Translations under genes and position numbers: made by a program
Notes under the pieces: generated by a model
The model's database searches: none
Told to the model about the DNA's origin: nothing
Seen by the model: only the letters and a program-made list of their open reading frames with translations
Shown: positions 23,301-51,310 of the stretch, piece after piece
Numbering within the stretch: the stretch's first letter is position 1
Layout of the letters: every line of letters starts with the position of its first letter
Assembly: GCA_030427585.1 (NCBI GenBank)
Contig: JAUIBW010000008.1
Location: forward strand, 5,831-69,830
Length of the DNA: 64,000 nucleotides
Source of the DNA: Bacteroidia bacterium
GTDB lineage: Bacteria > Bacteroidota > Bacteroidia > Flavobacteriales > Flavobacteriaceae
Reading direction: 5' to 3'

Positions 23301-23312
23301 TGATAATTATCA
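23301..23312 (-). promoter_or_regulatory. FixK/FNR-like box TGATAATTATCA
   Basis: Perfect palindrome overlapping the stop codon of the upstream usp. On the minus strand, 23 nt later comes TACATTTA. Confidence 0.6.
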
Positions 23313-24158
23313 GCTTAACTCAGGAATGACCAAGAAAGGAATGGTTGTGCGAAATCCTATTTTTTTAATAGTAGGTTCATGTGTGATACTTTCTATAAGA
23401 CTATGTTTATATTGTGACATACATAGTATATCAATATCCATATTATCAATAAACTCATTGATAAGTTTAGCTTTTTGAGTAAATCGAGGAATCCAATGGA
23501 TACAGTAATTAAAGTCTTTGAAATTTTCTTTAAGATGCTTAAGATTATGTTCTTGTATTTCGTCTAATTTCTCTTCTTCATGAATATGCATCACCCTAAT
23601 GTTTGAAGAAAATAGAGTAACAATTTCTAGAAGAGGTTTTAAAGACTCTATATTATAAAGACATTTAAAATCTGTTGCAAAAGCAATTTCTGTAGGTTTT
23701 TTAAAATCAAATTCATCTGGTACTGCCAGTATCGTGCAATCCTTAATATTATTAATGACTTTAACCGTATTACTTCCTATAAGAACTTCTTTGGCACCAC
23801 TGGCTCCCTTAGTTCCCATAACAACAAGATCGATATTTTTACTTTTTATGGTTTTGTTAATGGTATCGGTAAGTTTTTTGGAAACAGAAATAGTTTCAAA
23901 CGTATGCTTATAATCCTCTGTATCTCTAACTATAGAATGGAGCGTTTCGGTAAGCTTTTCCTGCGACTCATTACTTAATTCCTGATATAATAAATCTCCT
24001 TTGGCAATATTAATTCTACTTGTTAAAACCGGAGTATCTACATTAAAAGTATTTAGAATATAAAATTGACACTCCTGATCTTGAAATAATCTGGTCGCAT
24101 AAAAAAGTGCGCCATAAGCGTTATTAGAAAAATCTGTGGGAACAAGTATCCTTTTCAT
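23310..24158 (-). CDS. universal stress protein, tandem Usp domains
   Basis: ILVPTDFSNNAYGALFYATRLF, VMGTKGASGAKEVLIGSNT. Confidence 0.85.
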   Translation of the reverse strand: MKRILVPTDFSNNAYGALFYATRLFQDQECQFYILNTFNVDTPVLTSRINIAKGDLLYQELSNESQEKLTETLHSIVRDTEDYKHTFETISVSKKLTDTINKTIKSKNIDLVVMGTKGASGAKEVLIGSNTVKVINNIKDCTILAVPDEFDFKKPTEIAFATDFKCLYNIESLKPLLEIVTLFSSNIRVMHIHEEEKLDEIQEHNLKHLKENFKDFNYCIHWIPRFTQKAKLINEFIDNMDIDILCMSQYKHSLIESITHEPTIKKIGFRTTIPFLVIPELS

Positions 24159-24216
24159 CTCTTTTCAGTTTTACAAATTATATCATAAAATTAGCTTTAT
24201 AATAACAGGAATACTA

Positions 24217-24228
24217 TGACAAATCTCA
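24217..24228 (-). promoter_or_regulatory. FixK/FNR-like box TGACAAATCTCA (one half degenerate)
   Basis: On the minus strand, 23 nt later comes TAATTTTA. Confidence 0.5.
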
Positions 24229-24243
24229 TGTCTACAAAAACTC

Positions 24244-25098
24244 TCAAATACCAATATCGGCAGGGATTATCAAAAAAGGAATTATAGTATTAAATGTCAT
24301 TTTTTTGATGATGGGTTCTTTTATTATTCTTTCTACAAAACTATGCTCATAATTAATCATTACCAGAATATCGATTTCTAGTTCTTCTATAAATTCCTGA
24401 ATAGCATGTTCTACTGTAGAGAAATCAGACATGACATGAAAATCATATTTTACATGTTTAAAATAATATTCTAATGAGCTAGAATTATAATGTTGTAAAG
24501 GATTTAATTTGGGTTTATCATATATATGAATCATCCTAACCGTAGCATTCTGACTTTTAGCCAATTCTAGTATAGGAGCGATCTCTGCCTTATGATACAT
24601 TCGCTCAAAATCTGTTGCAAAAGCTATTGCCGAAATTTCTTTAAAATATGAATCATCAGGAATAATAAGGATAGGACAATGTGATACATTATTGACTACT
24701 TTTTGTGTAGTACTTCCTAAAAAAAGATTTTTACTTCCAGTTGTTCCTTTGGTACCAATGATAATCATATCAAAAGAGTTATGTTCTGAAAGCTTGTCTA
24801 TATTTTGAACCAAGGATCCCTTTTTACTTATTGTTTTAAAGATATGATGCAGTCCTGGTGTAGAATTATGGATATCTTCTAAAATCATTTTCAGTCCTTG
24901 CTCAGATTCCATTTTAATCGCTTCATAAAGATGACCTATACGCTGTGAACTCACCACACTTATAAGTTGTACTGGTTCAAGGTCATACGTGTTTAACAAA
25001 TAAAACTCACAAGGAACATTTCTATATAATTCTATAGCATACAATATAGTATTCCAAGCATTATCAGAAAAATCTGTAGGGATTAGAATTTGTTTCAT
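24244..25098 (-). CDS. universal stress protein, tandem Usp domains
   Basis: ILIPTDFSDNAWNTILYAIELY, IIGTKGTTGSKNLFLGSTT. Confidence 0.85.
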   Translation of the reverse strand: MKQILIPTDFSDNAWNTILYAIELYRNVPCEFYLLNTYDLEPVQLISVVSSQRIGHLYEAIKMESEQGLKMILEDIHNSTPGLHHIFKTISKKGSLVQNIDKLSEHNSFDMIIIGTKGTTGSKNLFLGSTTQKVVNNVSHCPILIIPDDSYFKEISAIAFATDFERMYHKAEIAPILELAKSQNATVRMIHIYDKPKLNPLQHYNSSSLEYYFKHVKYDFHVMSDFSTVEHAIQEFIEELEIDILVMINYEHSFVERIIKEPIIKKMTFNTIIPFLIIPADIGI

Positions 25099-25138
25099 TT
25101 GTCTATATTTATCAGACTAGCGAGGTCTAGGATTAATA

Positions 25139-25990
25139 TCAAGCGATCCTCTCTATAGAAGGGATTACCAAAAAAGGAATATTGGTATGATAGGCTACCT
25201 GGTTAATTACTGGTTTGAATAAAAGATTTTCGAAGAAAGAATGTTTATTGTGAATCATAACCAATAAATCGATTTTGTGCTTTTTCTGAAAATCTTCTAC
25301 AGCCTCTAGTACATCCATTCCTTCGGCAATGTGAAAAATATGAGCATTATTTTTAAAATACTTATCCAATTCCTCCTTAATCTTTTGCTGTTCAGCATCT
25401 AAAGCAACTCCATAATAAGCATTTAAGATATTAAGTCTACAAATATATTTATCACAAATTTCTTTTATTAAAGGTAAATATCTATTATCCATACTAAGGT
25501 TATAATCTGTTGGAAATAAAACATCTTTAGGTTTTTCAAATTCAAAACCAGAAGGAACTGCAATAACAGGACAGTTTACTTTTTTTATCGTATACATCGT
25601 ATGTGTCCCGATAAAGACTTCTTTGGCGCCTGTAGCTCCTTTGGTACCCATTATTATTAAATCAATATTGTATTTTTCGACAACTGACTTAATTTCTCCT
25701 ATTAGAGTATTAAAAACTGATAATCTAACAAAACTATGTTTCGGGTTATTAAACTCTTCTTTGATTTTTTCTTCTGTTCGTTCGACATCACGTTTAGAAT
25801 TTATCATTGCAATATCTTCCATGCCATACGGTGCAGGGTTCTCGATAAGATACCCTGTGTGATATGATACTGGCGTAAATGTATTGAGCAAATAAAAAGT
25901 AGTCTCTTCCTCTCTAAACAAATTTAAAGCATATCTAATCGCATTAAATGCATTATCAGAGAAATCGGTAGGTAATAAAATTCGTTTCAT
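25139..25990 (-). CDS. universal stress protein, tandem Usp domains
   Basis: ILLPTDFSDNAFNAIRYALNLF, IMGTKGATGAKEVFIGTHT. Confidence 0.85.
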   Translation of the reverse strand: MKRILLPTDFSDNAFNAIRYALNLFREEETTFYLLNTFTPVSYHTGYLIENPAPYGMEDIAMINSKRDVERTEEKIKEEFNNPKHSFVRLSVFNTLIGEIKSVVEKYNIDLIIMGTKGATGAKEVFIGTHTMYTIKKVNCPVIAVPSGFEFEKPKDVLFPTDYNLSMDNRYLPLIKEICDKYICRLNILNAYYGVALDAEQQKIKEELDKYFKNNAHIFHIAEGMDVLEAVEDFQKKHKIDLLVMIHNKHSFFENLLFKPVINQVAYHTNIPFLVIPSIERIA

Positions 25991-26002
25991 CTCTATATAA
26001 TT

Positions 26003-26851
26003 TTAATATCGTTGTAAGTTTTGCATCACTAAAAAAGGAATCTTAATATGTAGTCCTATTTTATCAATTGTAGATCGATCTAAAACATTTTCTAAATAAG
26101 AACGCCTCGAATTTACCATTACCAAAAAATCTATTTCATTACGCTCTGTAAACTGGTTTATAGCATAGGTAAGGTCTTCTGCTGTCTCTTGATGAAATAT
26201 TAATTTAGCATTAGGTAATGATTTTTTTAAAAAATGCTTATTATCTTCTTGCCGGATAGAAAGCTTGTCAAAGTTCGAGATATATAAAAAATTAATAGTA
26301 GACCTAAAGCTTTTAGTTAATGTACTAAACAATTTTAGTTCTCTTCGCTTAAATGGTAATTGATAATTTGTAGGAAATAGAATATTTTTTGGCGAATTGT
26401 AACTACAATTACTTGGAATTACTAATACAGGGCATTTTACATACTTAAGAACCTGTAAAGTATTGCTCCCAAAAGTAAGCTTTTGGTCATTAGTTTCTCC
26501 TTTTGTTCCCATAATCAGAATATCTATATTTTCCTTATCTACCAGATCATTAGCCTCATCGGTTAGACTCCCAAACATGGATAGTAATTTATACTCATGT
26601 CGAGGATTAGGTGAAATATTCTTTATTTCTAAAAGTACTTTCTCTAATGCCATATTAGAGTTTTTATATACTCTTTCTTTTAGTGTATCAAAAATTTCGC
26701 GAGAAACTACGGTGCTATGATCGTATACCTCATCGGCATAAGCATGTAATATAAAAAAATCACACCGTTCATATTTAAAAAGTTCAACAGCATATCGTAA
26801 AGCATTCATCGCATTTTCTGAAAAATCTGTGGGAATCAATATTTTTCTCAT
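26003..26851 (-). CDS. universal stress protein, tandem Usp domains
   Basis: ILIPTDFSENAMNALRYAVELF, IMGTKGETNDQKLTFGSNT. Confidence 0.85.
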   Translation of the reverse strand: MRKILIPTDFSENAMNALRYAVELFKYERCDFFILHAYADEVYDHSTVVSREIFDTLKERVYKNSNMALEKVLLEIKNISPNPRHEYKLLSMFGSLTDEANDLVDKENIDILIMGTKGETNDQKLTFGSNTLQVLKYVKCPVLVIPSNCSYNSPKNILFPTNYQLPFKRRELKLFSTLTKSFRSTINFLYISNFDKLSIRQEDNKHFLKKSLPNAKLIFHQETAEDLTYAINQFTERNEIDFLVMVNSRRSYLENVLDRSTIDKIGLHIKIPFLVMQNLQRY

Positions 26852-36988: not shown

Positions 36989-38206
36989 ATGAAACGACTT
37001 AAAGTTTTTGGAAGCTTAGTTAAAGATAGCTTAGATACTACCACTCAAGGCTCAAAAAAATACCACATCTGGATGGCATTTTTGACCTTTATTATGCTCA
37101 TTGGCATGTATTGTTATTCTTTACAAATTGAGCATGGTCTAAGTGTTACAGGAATGACCGACAGAGTAAGCTGGGGACTGTATATTTCTAATTTTACATT
37201 TCTGGTTGGTGTTGCTGCAGCTGCAGTAATGCTCGTTATGCCAACGTATGTACTAAAAGATATTGATTTTAAACAAGCTGTACTTATTGGTGAAGGACTG
37301 GCCGTTGCAGCATTGATTATGTGCTTAGCCTTTGTTGTAGCCGATATGGGTGGGCCATCTGTATTGTGGCATATGATACCGGGAATCGGAGTCTTTAATT
37401 TTCCGGCTTCAATGTTAACCTGGGATGTTATTGTACTTAACGGATATTTATTTTTAAATATCTCTATTCCGTTTTATATTTTATTCAGACGCTATCAGGG
37501 AAAAGTACCAAATCCAAAAATTTATGTCCCGGGAGCGATATTATCTGTATTTTGGGCAGTAGGTATTCATTTGGTAACTGCTTTTTTATATCAGGGATTA
37601 CAAGCTCGTCCTTTTTGGAATAATGCATTATTAGGTCCTCGATTTCTGGCATCTGCCTTTGCTGCCGGACCTGCCTTGATTATCCTTGTTTTGGCAATCA
37701 TTAGAACATTTACAGAATTTAAAATAGAAGATAAAACCATCAAAAAAATTGGTATGATCGTTACTGTTGCAGCCCAAATCAACCTGATCATGTTAGTATC
37801 TGAGTTGTTTAAAGAATTTTATGCCCCAACACATCATAGTGAAAGTGCATACTATCTATTTTTTGGGTTGCATGGTAAAACTGCATTATTACCTTGGATA
37901 TGGACAGCCATTCCTCTAAATGTTTTAGCAACTGTGCTGCTAACTTTTGGTAAGCTGCGTAACAATTTAAAGGTGTTATATTTCTGCTGTTTTATTCTTT
38001 TTATAGCCATCTGGATAGAAAAAGGATTCGGCTTGATCGTTCCCGGTTTTATTCCCGGGCCTTATGGAAAAATTTCGGAATATACGCCTACGGGAATAGA
38101 AATTGGAGTAACTCTTGGTATTTGGGCCTTAGGAGCTTTCATTTTTACTATACTTGCGAAAACTGCTATCAAGATAGAAACAGGGAAATTACAATTTAGA
38201 AAATAA
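36989..38206 (+). CDS. NrfD/PsrC-family polytopic membrane quinol-interacting subunit
   Basis: About 10 predicted TM helices. It follows the FeS subunit. ATG at 36989 is preferred over the GTG at 36965. Confidence 0.75.
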   Translation: MKRLKVFGSLVKDSLDTTTQGSKKYHIWMAFLTFIMLIGMYCYSLQIEHGLSVTGMTDRVSWGLYISNFTFLVGVAAAAVMLVMPTYVLKDIDFKQAVLIGEGLAVAALIMCLAFVVADMGGPSVLWHMIPGIGVFNFPASMLTWDVIVLNGYLFLNISIPFYILFRRYQGKVPNPKIYVPGAILSVFWAVGIHLVTAFLYQGLQARPFWNNALLGPRFLASAFAAGPALIILVLAIIRTFTEFKIEDKTIKKIGMIVTVAAQINLIMLVSELFKEFYAPTHHSESAYYLFFGLHGKTALLPWIWTAIPLNVLATVLLTFGKLRNNLKVLYFCCFILFIAIWIEKGFGLIVPGFIPGPYGKISEYTPTGIEIGVTLGIWALGAFIFTILAKTAIKIETGKLQFRK

Positions 38207-38211
38207 TAAAT

Positions 38212-38243
38212 AAGGCCGAATTTTTAATAAAATTCGGCCTTTT
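38212..38243. terminator. bidirectional terminator hairpin
   Basis: AAGGCCGAATT-TTTAATAA-AATTCGGCCTT flanked by A/T runs. It lies between the nap operon end and the end of the convergent mini-ORF array. Confidence 0.75.
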
Positions 38244-38263
38244 AGCATCTAATAACTCGTAGT

Positions 38264-38398
38264 TTAATGCGCGTATCGCCTAACTCTGGTGAACAAAGTA
38301 TCTTCATAATTATAAAGCTTTGGTACACAATCCAAAAACATATTTTGTTTTTGCGTTGCTGTTCTTAGTTGTTTTCTAATATTTCGTAAAGTTCTCAT
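38264..38398 (-). CDS. mini-ORF D, 44 aa, basic (divergent member of the tandem family)
   Basis: My own translation: MRTLRNIRKQLRTATQKQNMFLDCVPKLYNYEDTLFTRVRRYAH. Shares the MRTL start, the ATGAGAAC start context and the C-terminal RRY with ORFs A-C. Confidence 0.4.
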   Translation of the reverse strand: MRTLRNIRKQLRTATQKQNMFLDCVPKLYNYEDTLFTRVRRYAH

Positions 38399-38451
38399 GA
38401 TGGTTAGTTTTTAATCCCAAGTATTATTTGGGATAGATTGATAAATATTTG

Positions 38452-38538
38452 TTATCTATATCGCCTTTTCGAATTCCAGGTATACCCGATAGGTGCGTTT
38501 AATTTTCTTGTAATTCTATTGCTGTCTATAGTTCTCAT
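38452..38538 (-). CDS. mini-ORF C, 28 aa basic peptide
   Basis: MRTIDSNRITRKLNAPIGYTWNSKRRYR. Identical peptide to ORF B despite 10 nucleotide differences, all at synonymous third positions. Confidence 0.65.
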   Translation of the reverse strand: MRTIDSNRITRKLNAPIGYTWNSKRRYR

Positions 38539-38595
38539 AATTTCCGGTTTTTTGATTGATTTATGAATTATTATATTTTCTAATAAATATTAAAA

Positions 38596-38682
38596 TTATC
38601 TGTATCGTCTTTTCGAATTCCAGGTGTATCCAATTGGTGCATTTAATTTTCTTGTGATTCTGTTACTGTCTATAGTTCTCAT
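38596..38682 (-). CDS. mini-ORF B, 28 aa basic peptide
   Basis: MRTIDSNRITRKLNAPIGYTWNSKRRYR. See ORF C. Confidence 0.65.
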   Translation of the reverse strand: MRTIDSNRITRKLNAPIGYTWNSKRRYR

Positions 38683-38741
38683 AATTTCCGTTTTTTGATT
38701 GATGTATAAATTGTTGATTTTTTTAATAGTTGTACTTAAAA

Positions 38742-38828
38742 CTATCTATAACGTCTTTTTGAATTCCAAACATAACCTTTGGTTGCCATTAATTTTTTAG
38801 TGATTTGATTGTTGTCTAAAGTTCTCAT
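38742..38828 (-). CDS. mini-ORF A, 28 aa basic peptide
   Basis: MRTLDNNQITKKLMATKGYVWNSKRRYR. Same length and frame, with conserved MRT.D.N.IT.KL.A..GY.WNSKRRYR. Confidence 0.55.
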   Translation of the reverse strand: MRTLDNNQITKKLMATKGYVWNSKRRYR

Positions 38829-38996
38829 AATTTCTGTTTTTATAATTGATATATACCTACTAGACGTCGATAAATCATTTTTGTTACAGTACTATGTATA
38901 AAAAGGTACTATTTTAACAATTATTAACACTTCACATGTAAAAAAGGTATATAAAACAGGATATCCTTATTAAGAACAGTCTTAAATAATAAAACC

Positions 38997-39008: not shown

Positions 39009-39059
39009 TTTTTTTAGAAAATGTTCGCACATACTTTTGACTCATAATCAAAAGTAAGT

Positions 39060-39254
39060 ATGGGTGTAATCTATATACTCTTAACGATTAGTATTATCGT
39101 TGCTATCGTCTTTTTTATTAGCTTCATTATATCAGTCAGAAATGGTCAGTATGATGATGTCTATACTCCTTCTGTTAGGATGCTTTTTGATGATGAACTT
39201 ATAAAGGAAAGTAAAGAAAAATCTTCGGAATCCACTAAAACTAAACAATCTTAA
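39060..39254 (+). CDS. ccoS: cbb3 oxidase maturation protein CcoS
   Basis: 64 aa, single TM, then GQYDD......R.L.DDE. Confidence 0.8.
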   Translation: MGVIYILLTISIIVAIVFFISFIISVRNGQYDDVYTPSVRMLFDDELIKESKEKSSESTKTKQS

Positions 39255-48092: not shown

Positions 48093-48929
48093 TCACTCAT
48101 GCAACACCAAAAAGGGAATAGTAATGTGATAACTTATTTTTTCGACTGTAGGATGAAATAAAATACGCTGGAAGAAATTAAGGTTTTTGGCAACCATAGT
48201 AATCATATCAATATCCCTGCTTTCAACAAAACATTGTATAGCTTCTTCGATATTGGGATTAGAAAGGAAGTGAAAACTATGCTCTATTGTGTCAATAGAA
48301 TCATCTAAAAAATCTTTATTTTTTCTTTGTCTATCGCTTAATTCTTGTTCTTTTTTAGCAACATGCAAAACCCGTAAAGCAGCTTCATTTAAAGTAAGAG
48401 TATCCATGATTGTATTCAATACTCTGCTTTTATATAACATATTATAATCTGTGGGAAATGCAATTTCTTTAGGTTTGGTATAGATGGCTTTTTCGGGTAT
48501 TACCAAAACAGGGCACTTAACTTTTGTGATCACATCTCCTGTATTGCTACCTATGGTTTTTTCCTTAATCCCCGAAGCTCCTTTGGTTCCCATAACAATA
48601 AAATCAATATTCTTTTCCTTAACCTGTTTTCTAATCGCATCTACAAAAAAGATATATTCATTAATTTTGAAGAAGCTATGTTTTGTATTTAAAGGTAGCT
48701 TCTCTATTCTTTTAAGCAATAATTGCATTTGCTCTGTATCGCTTTGGGTACTTTTTTCTAAGACTGTTTCTTTTGAACCATAAAATGAATCTCTTCCTAT
48801 CATTTCTTCAAAGGGAGAGACATGTAACAAATAAAAGTTACATTTCACCCTTTTAAAAAATGACAATGCATATGCAACAGCATTCCACGAATTTTCAGAA
48901 AAATCTGTAGGGATCAGGATGTTTTTCAT
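48093..48929 (-). CDS. universal stress protein, tandem Usp domains
   Basis: ILIPTDFSENSWNAVAYALSFF, VMGTKGASGIKEKTIGSNT. Confidence 0.85.
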   Translation of the reverse strand: MKNILIPTDFSENSWNAVAYALSFFKRVKCNFYLLHVSPFEEMIGRDSFYGSKETVLEKSTQSDTEQMQLLLKRIEKLPLNTKHSFFKINEYIFFVDAIRKQVKEKNIDFIVMGTKGASGIKEKTIGSNTGDVITKVKCPVLVIPEKAIYTKPKEIAFPTDYNMLYKSRVLNTIMDTLTLNEAALRVLHVAKKEQELSDRQRKNKDFLDDSIDTIEHSFHFLSNPNIEEAIQCFVESRDIDMITMVAKNLNFFQRILFHPTVEKISYHITIPFLVLHE

Positions 48930-49013: not shown

Positions 49014-50078
49014 TTATTCTACCAACTGAAGACCAGGCAAATCCAAAATTTTTATATTACGGCCTTCGATTTCAATCAGTCCATCTTTTTTAAAACTAGA
49101 TAGTGTACGTATCAGGCTTTCTGTTGCGATCCCAGCGACACTTGCCAAATCATTTCTGGATATTTTTATGCTATCCATAGGTTTTTTGTCTAATATGTTA
49201 GCAAATTGAAGTATGGTTTGAGCTGTTTTTTTACGTACCGAACTATAGGCCATTTGTAATAATTGCTCTTTAATTTCAGAAAGGTTACCAGCAAGCAGTT
49301 CCATTAATTCGAGGGAAATATTCTTACTTTTTTCTAGAATCTCTTTCAAATTATTTTTTGATATTCCTGCTAATTCTAAGTCTTCAACTGCTGTTGCCGA
49401 TTCTAGATATGGTGTATTATCTATAAACGAAGTAAACCCCAGGAAATCATCGGTTTTGTATAAATTGGTAATCAGTTCTTTACCATTCTCATCCATTTTA
49501 TGACTTTTCACAACTCCTTTTAGGATAAGATATATGTTATTAGAATGCTCTCCTTCTTCATAGATTACTTCTCCCTTTTTAAATTTGGAAATCACACCAT
49601 GATCATCAAAAAAATTCTTAAGCTCATGTAAATTCCTAAGTCCACTATCTTCAGAAGTGTTTATTGCTGAAGCAGAAAATTCTTGATCTTTAACAACTTT
49701 AGAGAGTAAGGCTGCTTTTGCAAGACGACTTTCGATTGCACTCAATAATTCATCTTCTTCAAAAGGTTTGGTTAGATAATCATCAGCTCCCAAGTCCATT
49801 CCTTTTCGAATCTCTTTATGTTCCGTTTTTGCAGATAAAAATATAAAAGGGATATGGTTGGTCGCCGTATCGCAGGATAGTGCTTCCAGTACTCCATATC
49901 CATCAACCTCGGGCATCATAATATCACAAACAATAATATCTGGTTTTTCTTCTTTGGCTTTAACGATGCCTACTTTTCCGTTTGGAGATGTGATTACTTT
50001 ATAATCTGAAAGCTCTAATAGTTCTGCAGTATTTTCTCTAAGTGCTGTGTCATCTTCAATTAAAAGAATAGTTTTCAT
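49014..50078 (-). CDS. hybrid response regulator: REC domain fused to Crp/Fnr-type cNMP-binding-like and HTH domains
   Basis: REC: ILLIEDD, IIVCDIMMPEVDG, FLSAKT. C-terminal: effector barrel (GEVIYEEGEHSNNIYLILKGVVK) and HTH ISRNDLASVAGIATESLIRTLSSFKKDGLI. Confidence 0.85.
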   Translation of the reverse strand: MKTILLIEDDTALRENTAELLELSDYKVITSPNGKVGIVKAKEEKPDIIVCDIMMPEVDGYGVLEALSCDTATNHIPFIFLSAKTEHKEIRKGMDLGADDYLTKPFEEDELLSAIESRLAKAALLSKVVKDQEFSASAINTSEDSGLRNLHELKNFFDDHGVISKFKKGEVIYEEGEHSNNIYLILKGVVKSHKMDENGKELITNLYKTDDFLGFTSFIDNTPYLESATAVEDLELAGISKNNLKEILEKSKNISLELMELLAGNLSEIKEQLLQMAYSSVRKKTAQTILQFANILDKKPMDSIKISRNDLASVAGIATESLIRTLSSFKKDGLIEIEGRNIKILDLPGLQLVE

Positions 50079-51310
50079 GATTCGTGGGTATTGGTTGTAG
50101 GTATAGTAACTGTAAATGTAGATCCTTGATTTTCCTTACTTGTAAAAGTAATACTCCCACCTAGGTTTTCCAAATGGGTTTTCACAATATTCAACCCAAT
50201 ACCTGTTCCTTGATCTAATAAGGCATTTTCTGCCCTAAAATATCGTTTAAAAATAAAATCTTGTTCTTTTTTAGGAATACCAATACCTTGATCAATAATC
50301 TTAAATGTAAGGATATTATCTTCGAAACATACCTGCAAATCAATTACTGTATGTTCTCCAGAATATTTGATGGCATTATTAATTAAATTTGTAAGTACGA
50401 GTTCTAAAATCTTTTCATCAAATTCTATAACATAATCATCGATATCTTTGGGGTAATTTATTCTTTGCCCGTCTTTTAGTAACATATTAGCATCATACAC
50501 CACTTCATTAACAACCTTACTAAGTGGAAACTGGCTATATTTATAAGTTACTTTTCCTGTTTCGAGACGTTCGATAGATAAAAAATCATTTAAGATATTA
50601 TCCAGATATTTCACTTTGTTTTTTATAGTATCGAGATGTTTTTCTCTTTTTCCTTGTTGTTCTGTTTTGGTATATTTTCCTGCAAGAGTGGCTGAAGTAA
50701 GAATACCACTTAATGGTGTTTTAAACTCATGAGAGACAAGTGAAAGGAATTTTGTTTTTAGCTCACTTAAATCTCTTTCTTTTTTTAAAGATTCTTTAGT
50801 TTGAGCTTCGGCTTCCATACGAAGTTTTACTTCTTCTTTTAATTCTTGTATGGTATGATGCAGTTCTTCTGTACGTTCTTCTATTTTTTGCTCTAGTTTA
50901 GCATTTAAATCTTGTATTTGCTGTTCTTGTTGTTTTCGAAGTGTAATATCGATAATAAGGGCCATTACATAATTACTACCATAAATTGTAAATGGGTTTA
51001 AGCCTGCTTCTACCGGAAACACAGAGCCGTCTTTTCGTATCCCAAAAAGATCTCGTCCTGCTCCCATATGTCGTTTTTCACTATACGCTACAAAACCATC
51101 AAAATGCTTTTTGTGACCATGATGGTATTTTTTTGGTATCAACGTATTAAGATGTTTTCCTACTAACTCATTTGTATCATAGCCAAAAATAGTATTAGCA
51201 GATCCATTAGTTGCTACTATTGTTTGTTTTTCGTTCACTACAATGATACCTTCTGAAATGGCCTCAGAAAGTAATTTGAAAATGTTATTGTCTTTTTCGA
51301 AAACTTTCAT
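50075..51310 (-). CDS. PAS-domain sensor histidine kinase (FixL-like PAS, tentative)
   Basis: PAS, coiled coil, HisKA (LVSHEFKTPLS) and HATPase (NLINNAIKY, DQGIGI, GTGIGL). ATGA overlap with the regulator gene. Confidence 0.85.
   Translation of the reverse strand: MKVFEKDNNIFKLLSEAISEGIIVVNEKQTIVATNGSANTIFGYDTNELVGKHLNTLIPKKYHHGHKKHFDGFVAYSEKRHMGAGRDLFGIRKDGSVFPVEAGLNPFTIYGSNYVMALIIDITLRKQQEQQIQDLNAKLEQKIEERTEELHHTIQELKEEVKLRMEAEAQTKESLKKERDLSELKTKFLSLVSHEFKTPLSGILTSATLAGKYTKTEQQGKREKHLDTIKNKVKYLDNILNDFLSIERLETGKVTYKYSQFPLSKVVNEVVYDANMLLKDGQRINYPKDIDDYVIEFDEKILELVLTNLINNAIKYSGEHTVIDLQVCFEDNILTFKIIDQGIGIPKKEQDFIFKRYFRAENALLDQGTGIGLNIVKTHLENLGGSITFTSKENQGSTFTVTIPTTNTHES

What the first reader, a model, noticed from the sequence alone, without database searches (positions are those of the whole stretch)
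38264..38828. Tandem array of four unannotated mini-ORFs (28, 28, 28 and 44 aa) encoding basic MRT...RRYR peptides between nap and cco
- **Setting.** The 850-nt gap between the nap and cco operons is not empty.
- **ORFs.** On the minus strand are four consecutive small ORFs, each starting with ATGAGAAC in a similar upstream context (AAAAAC(C)GGAAATT-ATG for B and C, AAAAACAGAAATT-ATG for A, not conserved for D).
  - A, 38742-38828: MRTLDNNQITKKLMATKGYVWNSKRRYR
  - B, 38596-38682: MRTIDSNRITRKLNAPIGYTWNSKRRYR
  - C, 38452-38538: MRTIDSNRITRKLNAPIGYTWNSKRRYR
  - D, 38264-38398: MRTLRNIRKQLRTATQKQNMFLDCVPKLYNYEDTLFTRVRRYAH
- **Evidence for translation.** B and C encode the same peptide but differ at 10 nucleotide positions. 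All 10 are synonymous third-codon positions (agc/agt, aat/aac, att/atc, aac/aat, cct/cca, atc/att, ggg/gga, tat/tac, agg/aga, tat/tac). That pattern is a signature of purifying selection on translation, not of a non-coding repeat.
- **Frame conservation.** A keeps the same length and frame, with 8 substitutions and an invariant WNSKRRYR tail.
- **Properties.** The peptides have no signal peptide, no TM segment and no Gly-Gly leader, and I recognise no family.
- **Possible functions (speculative).** Nucleic-acid- or ribosome-binding small proteins, a toxin-like family, or precursors for an unlinked modification system.
Basis: seen in the sequence. Interest (0 to 1): 0.8.

Follow-up and report, generated by a model that had tools for sequence, protein, structure and literature searches.

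The report
Tandem mini-protein operon with dedicated promoter
Four tiny genes (three of 28 codons, one of 44) in the gap between the nitrate-reductase and cbb3-oxidase operons are real, conserved, almost certainly translated genes of two undescribed peptide families. In marine Flavobacteriaceae they occur as tandem arrays behind one very highly conserved stress-type promoter, and what the peptides do is still unknown.

Summary
The four minus-strand mini-ORFs form a self-contained operon.
- **Anatomy:** an ECF-sigma-type promoter (GTACTGTAAC-N16-CGTCTA) with a hyper-conserved upstream block, three 28-codon genes, one 44-codon gene of a second family, and an intrinsic terminator.
- **Conservation:** about 224 DNA-level copies of the 28-mer occur in 80 Flavobacteriaceae genome loci.
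  - All intact copies are exactly 28 codons. Only about 3 copies are disrupted.
  - Variation is concentrated at third codon positions, with pN/pS of about 0.2.
  - Indels are confined to the spacers.
  - Each copy carries the A-rich, Shine-Dalgarno-less initiation signature of highly translated Bacteroidetes genes.
  - Antisense frames are closed.
- **Context:** nap/cco adjacency is incidental (19 of 81 loci). No enzyme, transporter or regulator is consistently linked.
- **Wider family:** the same promoter heads arrays of other mini-peptide classes (33, 37 and 43-45 aa). They share an aromatic-x3-basic-basic-aromatic C-terminal tail.
- **Known families:** there is no Pfam, NCBIfam, PADLOC, Rfam, PDB or literature match. 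Protein databases hold almost none of these peptides.
- **Best guess (about 0.4):** stress-induced, bulk-expressed cytoplasmic basic micro-proteins that bind a conserved polyanionic partner.
- **Main rival (0.2):** precursors for unlinked modification enzymes.

The parts
38893..38930 (-). Upstream conserved operator-like block. It holds two TGTTAA repeats (38924-38929 and 38914-38919) and a TAGTAC repeat (38906-38911; a second copy at 38889-38894 overlaps the -35 element).
   Evidence: The block is near-invariant across genera in 178 unique instances. RNAalifold finds no consensus RNA structure on either strand. It is the most conserved segment of the module, at 0.89 identity against five distant Aquimarina.
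38883..38892 (-). Extended -35 element GTACTGTAAC (core TGTAAC) of an ECF-sigma-type promoter.
   Evidence: It occurs once in the 64-kb window. It occurs once per locus, 61-73 nt before the first ATG, in 64 of 81 loci.
38867..38882 (-). 16-nt promoter spacer, variable in sequence and invariant in length.
   Evidence: The spacer is exactly 16 nt in 63 of 64 instances while its sequence varies freely.
38861..38866 (-). -10 element CGTCTA. Conservation continues to about 38852, and the inferred transcription start is near 38853 +/- 3.
   Evidence: The start-site position is inferred from ECF promoter geometry (established knowledge), not measured.
38829..38860 (-). Short 5' leader and translation-initiation region of ORF A (AAAAACAGAAATT-ATG).
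   Evidence: Across 205 copies A is found at -3 in 89% and at -11 to -14 in 78-98%, and no Shine-Dalgarno sequence is present. These match the positive determinants measured in F. johnsoniae (PMC6847099).
38742..38828 (-). ORF A, 28 aa, MRTLDNNQITKKLMATKGYVWNSKRRYR. This is the first-position subtype (Q8, V20).
   Evidence: The same first-copy subtype is conserved in L001-L006, L008 and L011.
38596..38682 (-). ORF B, 28 aa, MRTIDSNRITRKLNAPIGYTWNSKRRYR. This is the internal subtype (R8, R11, T20).
38452..38538 (-). ORF C, 28 aa, with the same peptide as B.
   Evidence: It has 10 synonymous and 0 non-synonymous differences from B.
38414..38434 (-). Hairpin ATCCCAA-ataatac-TTGGGAT in the C-D spacer. 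It has no T-run and its role is unknown.
   Evidence: Read from the sequence. Its conservation was not tested.
38264..38398 (-). ORF D, 44 aa, MRTLRNIRKQLRTATQKQNMFLDCVPKLYNYEDTLFTRVRRYAH. It is the terminal gene and belongs to a second family ending ...[WF]xxx[KR]RYA[HY].
   Evidence: It follows the array in at least 61 of 81 loci. Its pN/pS is 0.35, and the sense frame is the only one open in all 34 of the 34 unique 44-codon genes.
38212..38241 (-). Intrinsic terminator: a 13-bp stem followed by a T-run. It is shared head-to-head with the convergent napH.
   Evidence: A hairpin plus T-run follows the last ORF in 55 of 75 arrays, at a median of 22 nt after the stop codon.

Best explanation
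**What it is.** The locus is an autonomous, polycistronic small-protein operon.

**Shown by comparative sequence evidence:**
- Three 28-codon genes and one 44-codon gene are under purifying selection at the protein level.
- Each has its own optimised Shine-Dalgarno-less initiation region.
- A promoter block precedes them. It has the geometry of an extracytoplasmic-function (ECF) sigma promoter: -35 TGTAAC, an invariant 16-nt spacer, and -10 CGTCTA.
- An intrinsic terminator follows them.
- The module travels as a unit through different genomic neighbourhoods.
- The same promoter heads operons of several related mini-peptide classes that share an aromatic-x3-[KR]-[RN]-[YF] C-terminal tail.

**Inferred:**
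- The peptides themselves are the products. They are not leader peptides and not RNA.
- They stay in the cytoplasm, because they have no signal peptide or membrane-spanning segment and no linked exporter.
- They are made in bulk when an unidentified ECF-type sigma is activated. Multiple identical copies kept by selection point to dosage.
- They act by binding a conserved polyanionic partner stoichiometrically through the invariant Trp/Arg/Tyr tail. The partner is most likely RNA or the ribosome, or else DNA or anionic membrane.
- The conserved N-terminal half (MRTLDxNQIT) and the single terminal 44-mer give specificity or modulation.

**Confidence by layer:**
- real translated genes: about 0.9;
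- dedicated ECF-type promoter: about 0.75;
- peptides are unmodified intracellular end products that bind a polyanion: about 0.35-0.4.
For: **Coding**
- There are 224 DNA-level copies. 210 are intact, all exactly 28 codons, and about 3 are disrupted.
- Codon-position entropy is 0.55/0.52/0.98.
- pN/pS is 0.20 within arrays. B versus C shows 10 synonymous and 0 non-synonymous differences.
- For D, pN/pS is 0.35.
- Other frames are open in at most 8% of copies.
- ORFs are gap-free while spacers carry the indels.
- The initiation regions have A at -3 and at -11 to -14, matching the measured determinants in F. johnsoniae.

**Promoter**
- GTACTGTAAC-N16-CGTC occurs once per locus, 61-73 nt before the first ATG. 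Spacer length is fixed and spacer sequence is free.
- There is no RNA consensus structure.
- TGTAAC-N16-CGTC occurs 190 times in 1.69 Mb of loci. I estimate about 2 by chance from base composition. 185 of the 190 sit in front of arrays.
- AAC in the -35 element and CGT in the -10 element, 16-17 bp apart, is the established ECF signature.

**Autonomy**
- cco is adjacent in only 19 of 81 loci, and no neighbour is universal.
- A terminator follows the last ORF in 55 of 75 arrays.

**Dosage**
- Arrays hold 1-5 copies.
- Copies are often identical as peptides despite saturated synonymous divergence.

**Binding motif rather than chemistry**
- The tail tolerates W/F and Y/F exchange across classes, while the basic residues and the spacing are kept.
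Against: - There is no expression, ribosome-footprint or peptide evidence.
- The sigma factor is unidentified. No ECF gene lies in the 64-kb window. The ECF gene sometimes found nearby has a different putative promoter of its own.
- The partner is unknown. No sequence similarity to any chain in the PDB, including small ribosomal proteins, was found.
- Strict conservation of the N-terminal half is not explained by generic polyanion binding.
- The same promoter also drives signal-peptide-bearing acidic repeat proteins and a small membrane protein in other genomes. That hints at an envelope or extracellular theme.
- The AlphaFold models are low-confidence and uninformative.
Confidence: 0.4

Rival explanations
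1. The peptides are precursors, as RiPPs or for a peptide-derived cofactor. The conserved N-terminal half would be a leader recognised by a maturase encoded elsewhere in the genome. The invariant W-N-x-K-R-R-Y tail would be cross-linked or excised. Multiple copies would supply substrate that is consumed stoichiometrically.
For: - The peptide is bipartite: conserved N-terminus, variable linker, invariant C-terminal aromatic/basic motif.
- Tandem multi-copy precursors are typical of RiPP and PqqA-type systems (my knowledge).
- The tail WNSKRRYR superficially resembles the radical-SAM-modified cores of darobactin (WNWSKSF) and dynobactin (WNSNVHSYRF). Both strings are confirmed in PMC10125368 and PMC13067283.
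- Identical peptides are maintained in several copies.
Against: - No radical-SAM, YcaO, lanthionine, ATP-grasp or P450 gene, no peptidase and no ABC exporter recurs within +/-6 kb in 200 loci.
- The only radical-SAM gene in the window is HemN, scoring 426 bits against a cutoff of 325.
- The metagenome promoter scan found no enzyme genes behind the same promoter.
- W/F and Y/F exchanges in the tail argue against one fixed chemistry.
- There is no match to any NCBIfam precursor model.
Confidence: 0.2
2. The peptides are exported, leaderless products. They would be cationic Arg/Trp antimicrobials or signals, analogous in gene layout to multi-peptide leaderless bacteriocins or the PSM-alpha operon, and released by an unlinked transporter, by vesicles or by lysis.
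For: - The layout is tandem related 28-44-aa cationic peptide genes in one operon under a dedicated inducible promoter.
- The tails are rich in Arg and Trp/Tyr.
- Secreted acidic repeat proteins are co-regulated in other genomes.
Against: - The peptides are strongly hydrophilic with no amphipathic-hydrophobic face (sequence).
- No transporter or immunity gene is linked.
- Copies are identical in sequence rather than diversified.
- There are no plasmid, phage or defence-system matches.
Confidence: 0.12
3. The ORFs are cis-acting regulatory elements. The nascent W...KRRYR peptide would stall the ribosome at termination, perhaps sensing a metabolite. That would control transcript stability or expression of the terminal 44-mer, so the peptide would have no function in trans.
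For: - The size (28 aa) and the invariant residues clustered in the last 8 positions, with a conserved Trp, recall arrest peptides such as TnaC, SecM and SpeFL (my knowledge).
- A single distinct gene always closes the array.
Against: - No structural gene lies downstream. A terminator follows D, and the next gene is convergent.
- Up to five reiterated sensors in series has no precedent.
- Natural variants with 1-4 extra C-terminal residues exist.
- Single-copy arrays without a D-type gene exist.
Confidence: 0.08
4. The locus is a two-component antagonistic pair. The reiterated basic 28-mers would be a toxin or effector, and the single 44-mer, which has a basic helix and an acidic YNYED segment, would neutralise or regulate them, or the reverse.
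For: - The n x 28-mer + 1 x 44-mer architecture is conserved in at least 61 of 81 loci.
- Arrays of the 37-mer class also end in one divergent gene.
- The N-termini are similar (MRTL..N) and could mediate pairing.
Against: - About a quarter of arrays lack a recognisable D-type gene.
- There is no PADLOC or toxin-antitoxin family match.
- There is no hydrophobic toxin and no antisense gene.
- Co-transcription from one promoter gives no differential control.
Confidence: 0.05
5. The locus is not protein-coding on this strand. It would be a tandem non-coding RNA or DNA repeat, or the antisense hydrophobic ORFs would be the real genes (a type-I-toxin-like arrangement).
For: - The antisense frame that shares third codon positions gives hydrophobic peptides that are also identical between B and C. 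For that reason the synonymous pattern of the window alone is ambiguous.
Against: - That antisense frame is open in only 16 of 200 copies, against 200 of 200 for the sense frame.
- A DNA-level search not conditioned on ORFs finds only about 3 disrupted copies among 224.
- There is no Rfam hit.
- Start codon, stop codon and the 28-codon length are invariant while the spacers vary in length.
Confidence: 0.02

Closest known systems
PSM-alpha operon of Staphylococcus aureus (four tandem peptide genes of about 21 aa, long unannotated, driven directly by one dedicated regulator). From my own knowledge, not checked here.
   Same: It is a tandem array of very short, related, historically unannotated ORFs in one transcript under a dedicated inducible promoter. 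The peptides are the products and are made in bulk.
   Different: PSMs are hydrophobic amphipathic helices exported by a dedicated ABC transporter. The present peptides are hydrophilic and strongly basic, have no linked exporter, and sit behind an ECF-type promoter rather than an AgrA site. There is no sequence similarity.
Multi-peptide leaderless bacteriocins (aureocin A70 aurABCD, garvicin KS, enterocin L50). From my own knowledge.
   Same: There are two to four tandem genes for related cationic 30-44-aa peptides that contain Trp and lack a leader.
   Different: Those peptides are hydrophobic membrane-permeabilising helices, encoded next to transporter and immunity genes and often on plasmids. 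None of these features is present here.
Small acid-soluble spore proteins, and stationary-phase ribosome or nucleoid binders (RMF, Sra, bTHX). From my own knowledge.
   Same: They are small paralogous proteins under an alternative sigma factor, made in stoichiometric amounts to coat a nucleic-acid target. This is the closest analogue for how I think the peptides work.
   Different: There is no sequence similarity (PDB sequence search). Those proteins are single genes or dispersed genes, not tandem arrays. They are 26-70 aa with different motifs. Bacteroidetes do not sporulate.
Darobactin and dynobactin precursors, and other radical-SAM cross-linked RiPPs (triceptides, ryptides).
   Same: There is a short aromatic/basic core with a W-N-(x)-S-K or W-N-S start. 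Core strings are confirmed. Multi-copy precursors occur in some RiPP families.
   Different: Those precursors are defined by an adjacent radical-SAM/SPASM maturase and usually an exporter, and they have a longer leader. No such gene is linked in 200 loci.
PqqA-type cofactor precursor peptides. From my own knowledge.
   Same: They are peptides of about 23-30 aa, sometimes in several tandem copies, with invariant residues that are consumed stoichiometrically. Here about a quarter of the arrays lie next to respiratory genes.
   Different: pqqA lies with pqqBCDE. No biosynthetic genes are linked here, the tail tolerates aromatic exchanges, and several length classes exist.

Membership tests
Any curated protein, defence or RNA family (Pfam-A, NCBIfam, PADLOC, Rfam) | A significant profile match | tested here: not met
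   There are no hits at E <= 10 for A, B or D in Pfam, NCBIfam or PADLOC. The other peptide classes found behind the same promoter gave no hits at E <= 1 in Pfam or NCBIfam. Rfam gives only sub-threshold chance hits.
RiPP precursor (darobactin/daropeptide, triceptide, ryptide and similar) | A cognate maturase (radical-SAM/SPASM or other) encoded with the precursor | tested here: not met
   No such gene recurs within +/-6 kb of 200 loci. The window's radical-SAM gene is HemN. Enzymes encoded elsewhere in the genome could not be tested.
RiPP precursor | A linked peptidase or exporter for leader removal and secretion | tested here: not met
   None appears among the recurrent neighbours.
RiPP precursor | Post-translational modification of the core | not testable with these tools
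   This needs intact-mass spectrometry.
Leader peptide or transcription attenuator | A regulated structural gene downstream on the same transcript, with alternative terminator and antiterminator structures | tested here: not met
   An intrinsic terminator directly follows the last mini-ORF, in the window and in 55 of 75 arrays. The next gene in the window is convergent.
Type I toxin-antitoxin | A small hydrophobic membrane toxin plus an overlapping antisense RNA | tested here: not met
   The sense peptides are hydrophilic. The hydrophobic antisense frame is interrupted in 184 of 200 copies.
ECF (group 4) sigma-dependent promoter | A -35 element with an AAC core and a -10 element with a CGT core, separated by a fixed 16-17 bp | tested here: met
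   The motif is TGTAAC-N16-CGTCTA. The spacer is 16 nt in 63 of 64 genome instances and varies in sequence.
ECF sigma-dependent promoter | A transcription start 5-8 nt after the -10 element, and dependence on a specific ECF sigma factor | not testable with these tools
   No transcriptome data are available. No cognate sigma was identified.
ECF sigma regulon | The same motif upstream of the sigma/anti-sigma operon (autoregulation) | tested here: inconclusive
   No second motif copy lies in the 64-kb window. The ECF genes near some arrays carry a different upstream motif. Whole genomes were not available.
Known small ribosomal or ribosome-associated proteins (bTHX, bS22, bL36, RMF, Sra) | Sequence similarity to a chain in solved ribosome structures | tested here: not met
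   phmmer against all PDB chains gives no hit at E <= 10.
Leaderless multi-peptide bacteriocin or PSM | An amphipathic hydrophobic helix, with a linked ABC exporter and immunity genes | tested here: not met
   The composition is hydrophilic and basic. There is no linked transporter. There are no plasmid copies.
Target of RNA-guided transcription (dCas12f-sigmaE; PMC13472631) | A guide-matching target with no promoter motifs required, and rpoE-dcas12f in the genome | tested here: inconclusive
   I considered this because the upstream block is so conserved. However, the element has a canonical bipartite -35/-10 with fixed spacing, unlike the promoter-independent targets described in that paper. 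No dcas12f search was possible.

The most novel reading that the evidence does not exclude
Marine Flavobacteriaceae carry a previously unrecognised regulon. A hyper-conserved promoter/operator module of about 80 bp, of ECF type, drives operons of reiterated 28-45-aa hydrophilic basic peptides. There are at least four length classes, which share an aromatic-x3-basic-basic-aromatic C-terminal tail, and each array is usually closed by one distinct terminal peptide. These peptides would be a new functional class. One possibility is bulk stress micro-proteins that coat a conserved cellular polyanion such as the ribosome, RNA or the nucleoid. The other is substrates for a still unknown, unlinked peptide-modifying pathway. 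Either would be invisible to current annotation.
Probability: 0.55. Interest if true: 0.8.

Novelty: new variant of a known kind. Interest (0 to 1): 0.72.

Why it matters
- **A gap in annotation.** The 28-mer genes are 87 nt long. As I recall, that is below the 90-nt floor of the usual gene callers. A search of 5.8 billion proteins found only four accidental N-terminally extended calls, all either unnamed or 'hypothetical'. A search with the 44-mer against 1.84 billion representatives found six matches.
- **A testable regulon.** The promoter block is more conserved than the genes it drives. It offers a ready handle to find the sigma factor or regulator and the inducing condition, using a reporter, a pull-down or an ECF overexpression panel.
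- **Wider relevance.** If the peptides bind ribosomes or nucleic acids, this would be a new stress or hibernation strategy in a phylum whose translation apparatus is already unusual. If they are modified, it would be a RiPP-like pathway with fully unlinked precursors. In either case it adds a well-supported case to the still short list of conserved bacterial micro-protein families with defined regulation.

Tried and rejected
1. **Profile and structure libraries.** Pfam, NCBIfam, PADLOC, Rfam and PDB-sequence searches of all peptide classes gave nothing.
2. **Antisense hydrophobic ORFs as the real genes.** Rejected, because the frame is closed in 92% of copies.
3. **Promoter block as a structured RNA or riboswitch.** Rejected, because RNAalifold energy is 0 on both strands and there is no Rfam hit.
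4. **Housekeeping Bacteroidetes promoter (TTTG / TAnnTTTG, from memory).** I saw no convincing match by eye. The E. coli-type sigma-70 scan is irrelevant here.
5. **Functional coupling to nap/cco.** Rejected as a general feature. The association is syntenic in only about a quarter of loci.
6. **A linked ECF sigma as the cognate factor.** An orthologous ECF gene with a 200-aa partner lies within 0.3-4 kb in about 11 of 200 loci. It has a different conserved upstream motif (TGTGAT-N15-ATACTAAT), and the frequency is about what chance would give.
7. **The window's radical-SAM gene as a maturase.** Rejected. It is HemN.
8. **Target of dCas12f-sigmaE RNA-guided transcription.** Unlikely, given the canonical bipartite motif.
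9. **Phage or plasmid origin.** There are no matches.
10. **Literature.** Searches for the peptide strings, for Flavobacteriaceae small ORFs and for Aquimarina RiPPs found nothing relevant.
11. **Exact-match lookup of D.** It is not on record.
12. **AlphaFold.**
    - D gives a single helix at pLDDT 75.
    - The 28-mer gives an N-terminal helix plus a disordered tail at pLDDT 63.
    - Both are too weak to use, so no fold search was run.
13. **Homologues of the co-regulated acidic repeat protein.** There are 175 hits, all unnamed or 'hypothetical' and none with a meaningful Pfam assignment.
Full report
**1. The observation**

| ORF | Coordinates | Peptide |
|---|---|---|
| A | 38742-38828 | MRTLDNNQITKKLMATKGYVWNSKRRYR |
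| B | 38596-38682 | MRTIDSNRITRKLNAPIGYTWNSKRRYR |
| C | 38452-38538 | MRTIDSNRITRKLNAPIGYTWNSKRRYR |
| D | 38264-38398 | 44 aa |

- They lie in the 853-nt gap between a convergent napH/NrfD-type gene (ends at 38206) and the divergent ccoS-ccoNO (starts at 39060).
- B and C differ at 10 sites, all synonymous: 10.0 over 17.3 synonymous sites and 0 over 63.7 non-synonymous sites.

**2. Is the locus coding, and on which strand?**

The window alone is ambiguous.
- The antisense frame that shares third codon positions encodes hydrophobic peptides that are also identical between B and C.
- Comparative data settle the question.

*How many copies there are.*
- A back-translated pattern scan of one genome per species returned 80 loci with relatives, mostly Aquimarina. 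Other named genera are Formosa, Marixanthomonas, Bizionia, Xanthomarina, Mangrovimonas, Ulvibacter, Winogradskyella, Lacinutrix, Snuella, Sungkyunkwania, Luteirhabdus, Microcosmobacter and Thermobacterium, plus one MAG labelled Zunongwangia.
- These loci hold 210 intact copies: 200 distinct nucleotide sequences and 156 distinct peptides. Every one is exactly 28 codons.

*Conserved residues.*
- The consensus is MRTLD[SN]NQI[TS]xKxxxxxGYxWNxKRR[YF]R.
- M1, W21, N22, R25 and R26 are invariant.

*Evidence for selection on the protein.*
- Mean column entropy by codon position is 0.55/0.52/0.98. Textbook cases are T3 (0.05/0.05/1.17) and N22 (0/0/1.0).
- Pooled pN/pS is 0.20 among paralogues within arrays, and the median dN/dS is 0.25 over 10,360 pairs.
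- All other frames are interrupted in at least 92% of copies. The critical antisense frame is open in 16 of 200.
- An nhmmer search not conditioned on open frames finds 224 copies, of which only about 3 are disrupted: one W-to-stop, one poly-A frameshift and one internal stop.
- Against five distant Aquimarina species, the ORFs are 0.72-0.82 identical with almost no gaps. The spacers are 0.64 identical and carry nearly all indels.

*Evidence for translation signals.*
- Across 205 copies the bases upstream of the ATG show A at -3 (89%), A at -11 to -14 (78-98%) and A or G at -6. There is no Shine-Dalgarno core.
- These are the positions shown by ribosome profiling and reporters to promote initiation in Flavobacterium johnsoniae (PMC6847099).

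I regard translation as established as far as sequence evidence can go.

**3. ORF D is a second family**

- tblastn finds D-like ORFs of 43-49 aa directly after the last 28-mer in at least 61 of 81 loci, across genera. The usual gap is 30-90 nt.
- The consensus is MktlrNirKrLk.a.QKQnmFld.t.n.ynyEd.lf...kRYAy. pN/pS is 0.35, and the sense frame is the only one open in all 34 unique 44-codon genes.
- The module is therefore n x 28-mer (n = 1-5) followed by one terminal 44-mer.
- In the clade containing the window, the first 28-mer (Q8, V20) and the later ones (R8, R11, T20) are distinct subtypes kept across at least 8 species.
- Copy number varies between close relatives: 3 in the window and 3-5 in L001-L004.

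**4. Promoter and terminator**

*The element.* The most conserved element is non-coding. In the window it reads, on the minus strand:

GTGTTAATAATTGTTAAAATAGTACCTTTTTATACATAGTACTGTAAC (38883-38930) - N16 - CGTCTAGTAGGTATA (38852-38866).

The ATG of A lies 32 nt after CGTCTA.

*Occurrence.*
- GTACTGTAAC-N16-CGTC occurs once per locus, 61-73 nt before the first ATG, in 64 of 81 loci. The spacer is 16 nt in 63 of 64 and varies freely in sequence.
- It occurs once in the 64-kb window.
- Across 178 unique instances there is no consensus RNA structure on either strand.

*Interpretation.*
- A bipartite motif with a fixed-length, free-sequence spacer indicates a promoter.
- TGTAAC (AAC core) and CGTC (CGT core) 16 bp apart is the established signature of group-4 (ECF) sigma factors.
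- The additional roughly 40 bp upstream carry TGTTAA twice, 10 bp apart, and TAGTAC twice, 17 bp apart. They are conserved far beyond what a sigma factor needs, which suggests an accessory regulator.
- The block is 0.89 identical between distant species, more than the genes.

*Terminator.* A 13-bp-stem terminator follows D in the window. A hairpin plus T-run follows the last ORF in 55 of 75 arrays, at a median of 22 nt after the stop.

**5. Genomic context**

- The window is a low-oxygen island: five Usp genes, ccoI, napABC-GH, ccoS-NO-P-G-H, hemN, a receiver-Crp/Fnr fusion and a PAS histidine kinase.
- cco is adjacent to the array in only 19 of 81 loci.
- Over 200 loci the commonest neighbours are:
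  - an unknown secreted 220-aa protein (37 loci);
  - a DEAD/ResIII helicase (30 loci);
  - a fatty-acid hydroxylase (24 loci);
  - a methyltransferase (17 loci).
- No enzyme, transporter or regulator is consistently linked.
- The window's only radical-SAM gene is HemN.
- ECF genes lie nearby in about 7% of loci, about what chance predicts in this ECF-rich phylum. The recurrent one has a different upstream motif of its own.

**6. A wider superfamily or regulon**

Behind the motif lie:
- 28-mer arrays at 47 of 121 sites;
- tandem arrays of 37-mers (Mkas...T.TEsr...yFS.f..sKR.qWa.yRn.nr), of 43-44-mers (...RDxW[NY]xRRR[FY]G[LY]) and of 33-mers (...NRRRFA);
- at about 12 sites, a signal-peptide protein of about 135-190 aa with acidic EEEVELGFDTxxYLPENFN repeats, and at 3 sites a 71-aa membrane protein.

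Over the 193 promoter instances in all fetched loci, ORF lengths peak at 28 (276 ORFs), 37 (51) and 44 (61) aa.

All peptide classes, including D, share a C-terminal aromatic-x3-[KR]-[RN]-[YF]-x(1-3) motif. None matches any family.

A weaker TGTAAC-N16-CGTC without the upstream block precedes a second acidic repeat gene, which supports a genuine promoter.

**7. Mechanism**

*Shown:* a conserved, autonomous operon of protein-coding mini-genes with a promoter, initiation regions and a terminator.

*Inferred:* the peptides are end products.
- No gene lies downstream, so they are not leader peptides.
- They are hydrophilic with a net charge of about +7. They have no signal peptide or membrane-spanning segment and no linked exporter.
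- Identical peptides are maintained in several copies despite saturated synonymous divergence (pS 0.58 between B and C). This points to selection for dosage, and so to a stoichiometric role.
- W/F and Y/F exchanges in a tail with otherwise fixed spacing and basic residues fit a non-covalent recognition motif better than a fixed chemistry.

*Best reading (about 0.4):* conditionally induced micro-proteins that bind a conserved polyanionic partner, with RNA or the ribosome most likely.

*Rivals:*

| Rival | Confidence |
|---|---|
| Precursors for unlinked maturases | 0.2 |
| Exported leaderless peptides | 0.12 |
| Ribosome-arrest regulatory ORFs | 0.08 |
| Antagonistic pair (28-mers versus 44-mer) | 0.05 |
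| Non-coding or antisense gene | 0.02 |

For the first rival, the tail superficially resembles the darobactin (WNWSKSF) and dynobactin (WNSNVHSYRF) cores.

The AlphaFold models are low-confidence and add nothing: a helix for D, and an N-terminal helix plus disordered tail for the 28-mer.

**8. Novelty**

- There is no family, structure or paper.
- There are no phage or plasmid copies.
- Protein databases contain almost none of these genes.
- The layout resembles known tandem peptide operons (PSM-alpha, multi-peptide leaderless bacteriocins), and the presumed logic resembles alternative-sigma-controlled stoichiometric binders (SASPs, RMF). Every membership test fails.
- I file it as a new variant of the general kind 'dedicated small-peptide operon', comprising two new families and a new promoter module. 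Its function is open.

Noticed in passing
Metagenome loci L085, L089, L121, L129, L149 (two genes: promoters at about 5777 and about 6892, + strand), L151, L177, L178, L200: The same ECF-type promoter drives signal-peptide proteins of about 135-250 aa with 2-4 strongly acidic repeats (EEEVELGFDTxxYLPENFNALKGKHDLDW). A homologue search found 175 relatives, all unnamed or 'hypothetical' and essentially without Pfam domains. They may be co-regulated counterparts of the basic peptides.
   Followed up: partly
Metagenome loci such as L084, L091, L122, L131, L138, L166 (37-mers); L095, L134, L144, L150, L164 (43-44-mers); L083, L170 (33-mers): Other tandem mini-ORF classes lie behind the same promoter. 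The 37-mers also show a third-position bias (entropy 0.85/1.02/1.25), and the sense frame is the only one open in all 47 unique genes. Their arrays likewise end in one divergent gene.
   Followed up: partly
L117, L176, L187: A 71-aa hydrophobic protein (MFHLSILIITKAIK...WLEAMEDFS) is the first gene behind the same promoter. It matches no family.
   Followed up: no
L092 5590-6072, L168 8643-9125, L131 3401-3886, L032 8691-9176, L038 10295-10780 (all minus strand in locus coordinates): An orthologous ECF sigma gene of 161-162 aa, followed by a gene of about 200 aa, lies 0.3-4 kb from arrays of different classes in about 11 loci. It has its own conserved upstream motif, TGTGAT-N15-ATACTAAT. It is probably not the cognate sigma, but this is unresolved.
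   Followed up: partly
window 39034-39054: A perfect 7-bp inverted repeat, CTTTTGA-N7-TCAAAAG (read on the minus strand), ends 5 nt before the ccoS start codon at 39060. It could be an operator or a 5'-UTR hairpin for ccoS-ccoNO.
   Followed up: no
window 23310-26851 (-) and 48093-48929 (-): There are four head-to-tail paralogous ORFs of about 282 aa and a fifth nearby. The three that were scanned (23310-24158, 26003-26851 and 48093-48929) match the Pfam universal-stress-protein family. They flank the ccoI/nap/cco/hemN low-oxygen island.
   Followed up: partly
window 49014-50078 (-) and 50075-51310 (-): An unusual fusion regulator (receiver domain + cNMP-binding domain + Crp-type HTH) overlaps by 4 nt a PAS histidine kinase gene. 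It is a candidate oxygen or redox regulator of the island. Homologues occur in 15 of the fetched loci.
   Followed up: no
window 38242-38328 (-): A 28-aa GTG-start ORF overlaps the 3' end of D in another frame. ATG-start counterparts of about 21 aa appear in L001-L004. It is most likely a by-product of D's conservation.
   Followed up: no
L043 (contig CAZOSF010000022.1): A contig binned as 'uncultured Alteromonas' carries a typical Flavobacteriaceae array and promoter. This is probably a binning error rather than horizontal transfer.
   Followed up: no
L067 and L071 (Winogradskyella), L053, L059, L079: Single 28-mer genes (two tandem copies in L053) lack the canonical promoter. L067 and L071 instead share an upstream repeat, CTAGGTTAATGCTAGGTTAACC. 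In some lineages the peptide gene may be under different control.
   Followed up: no
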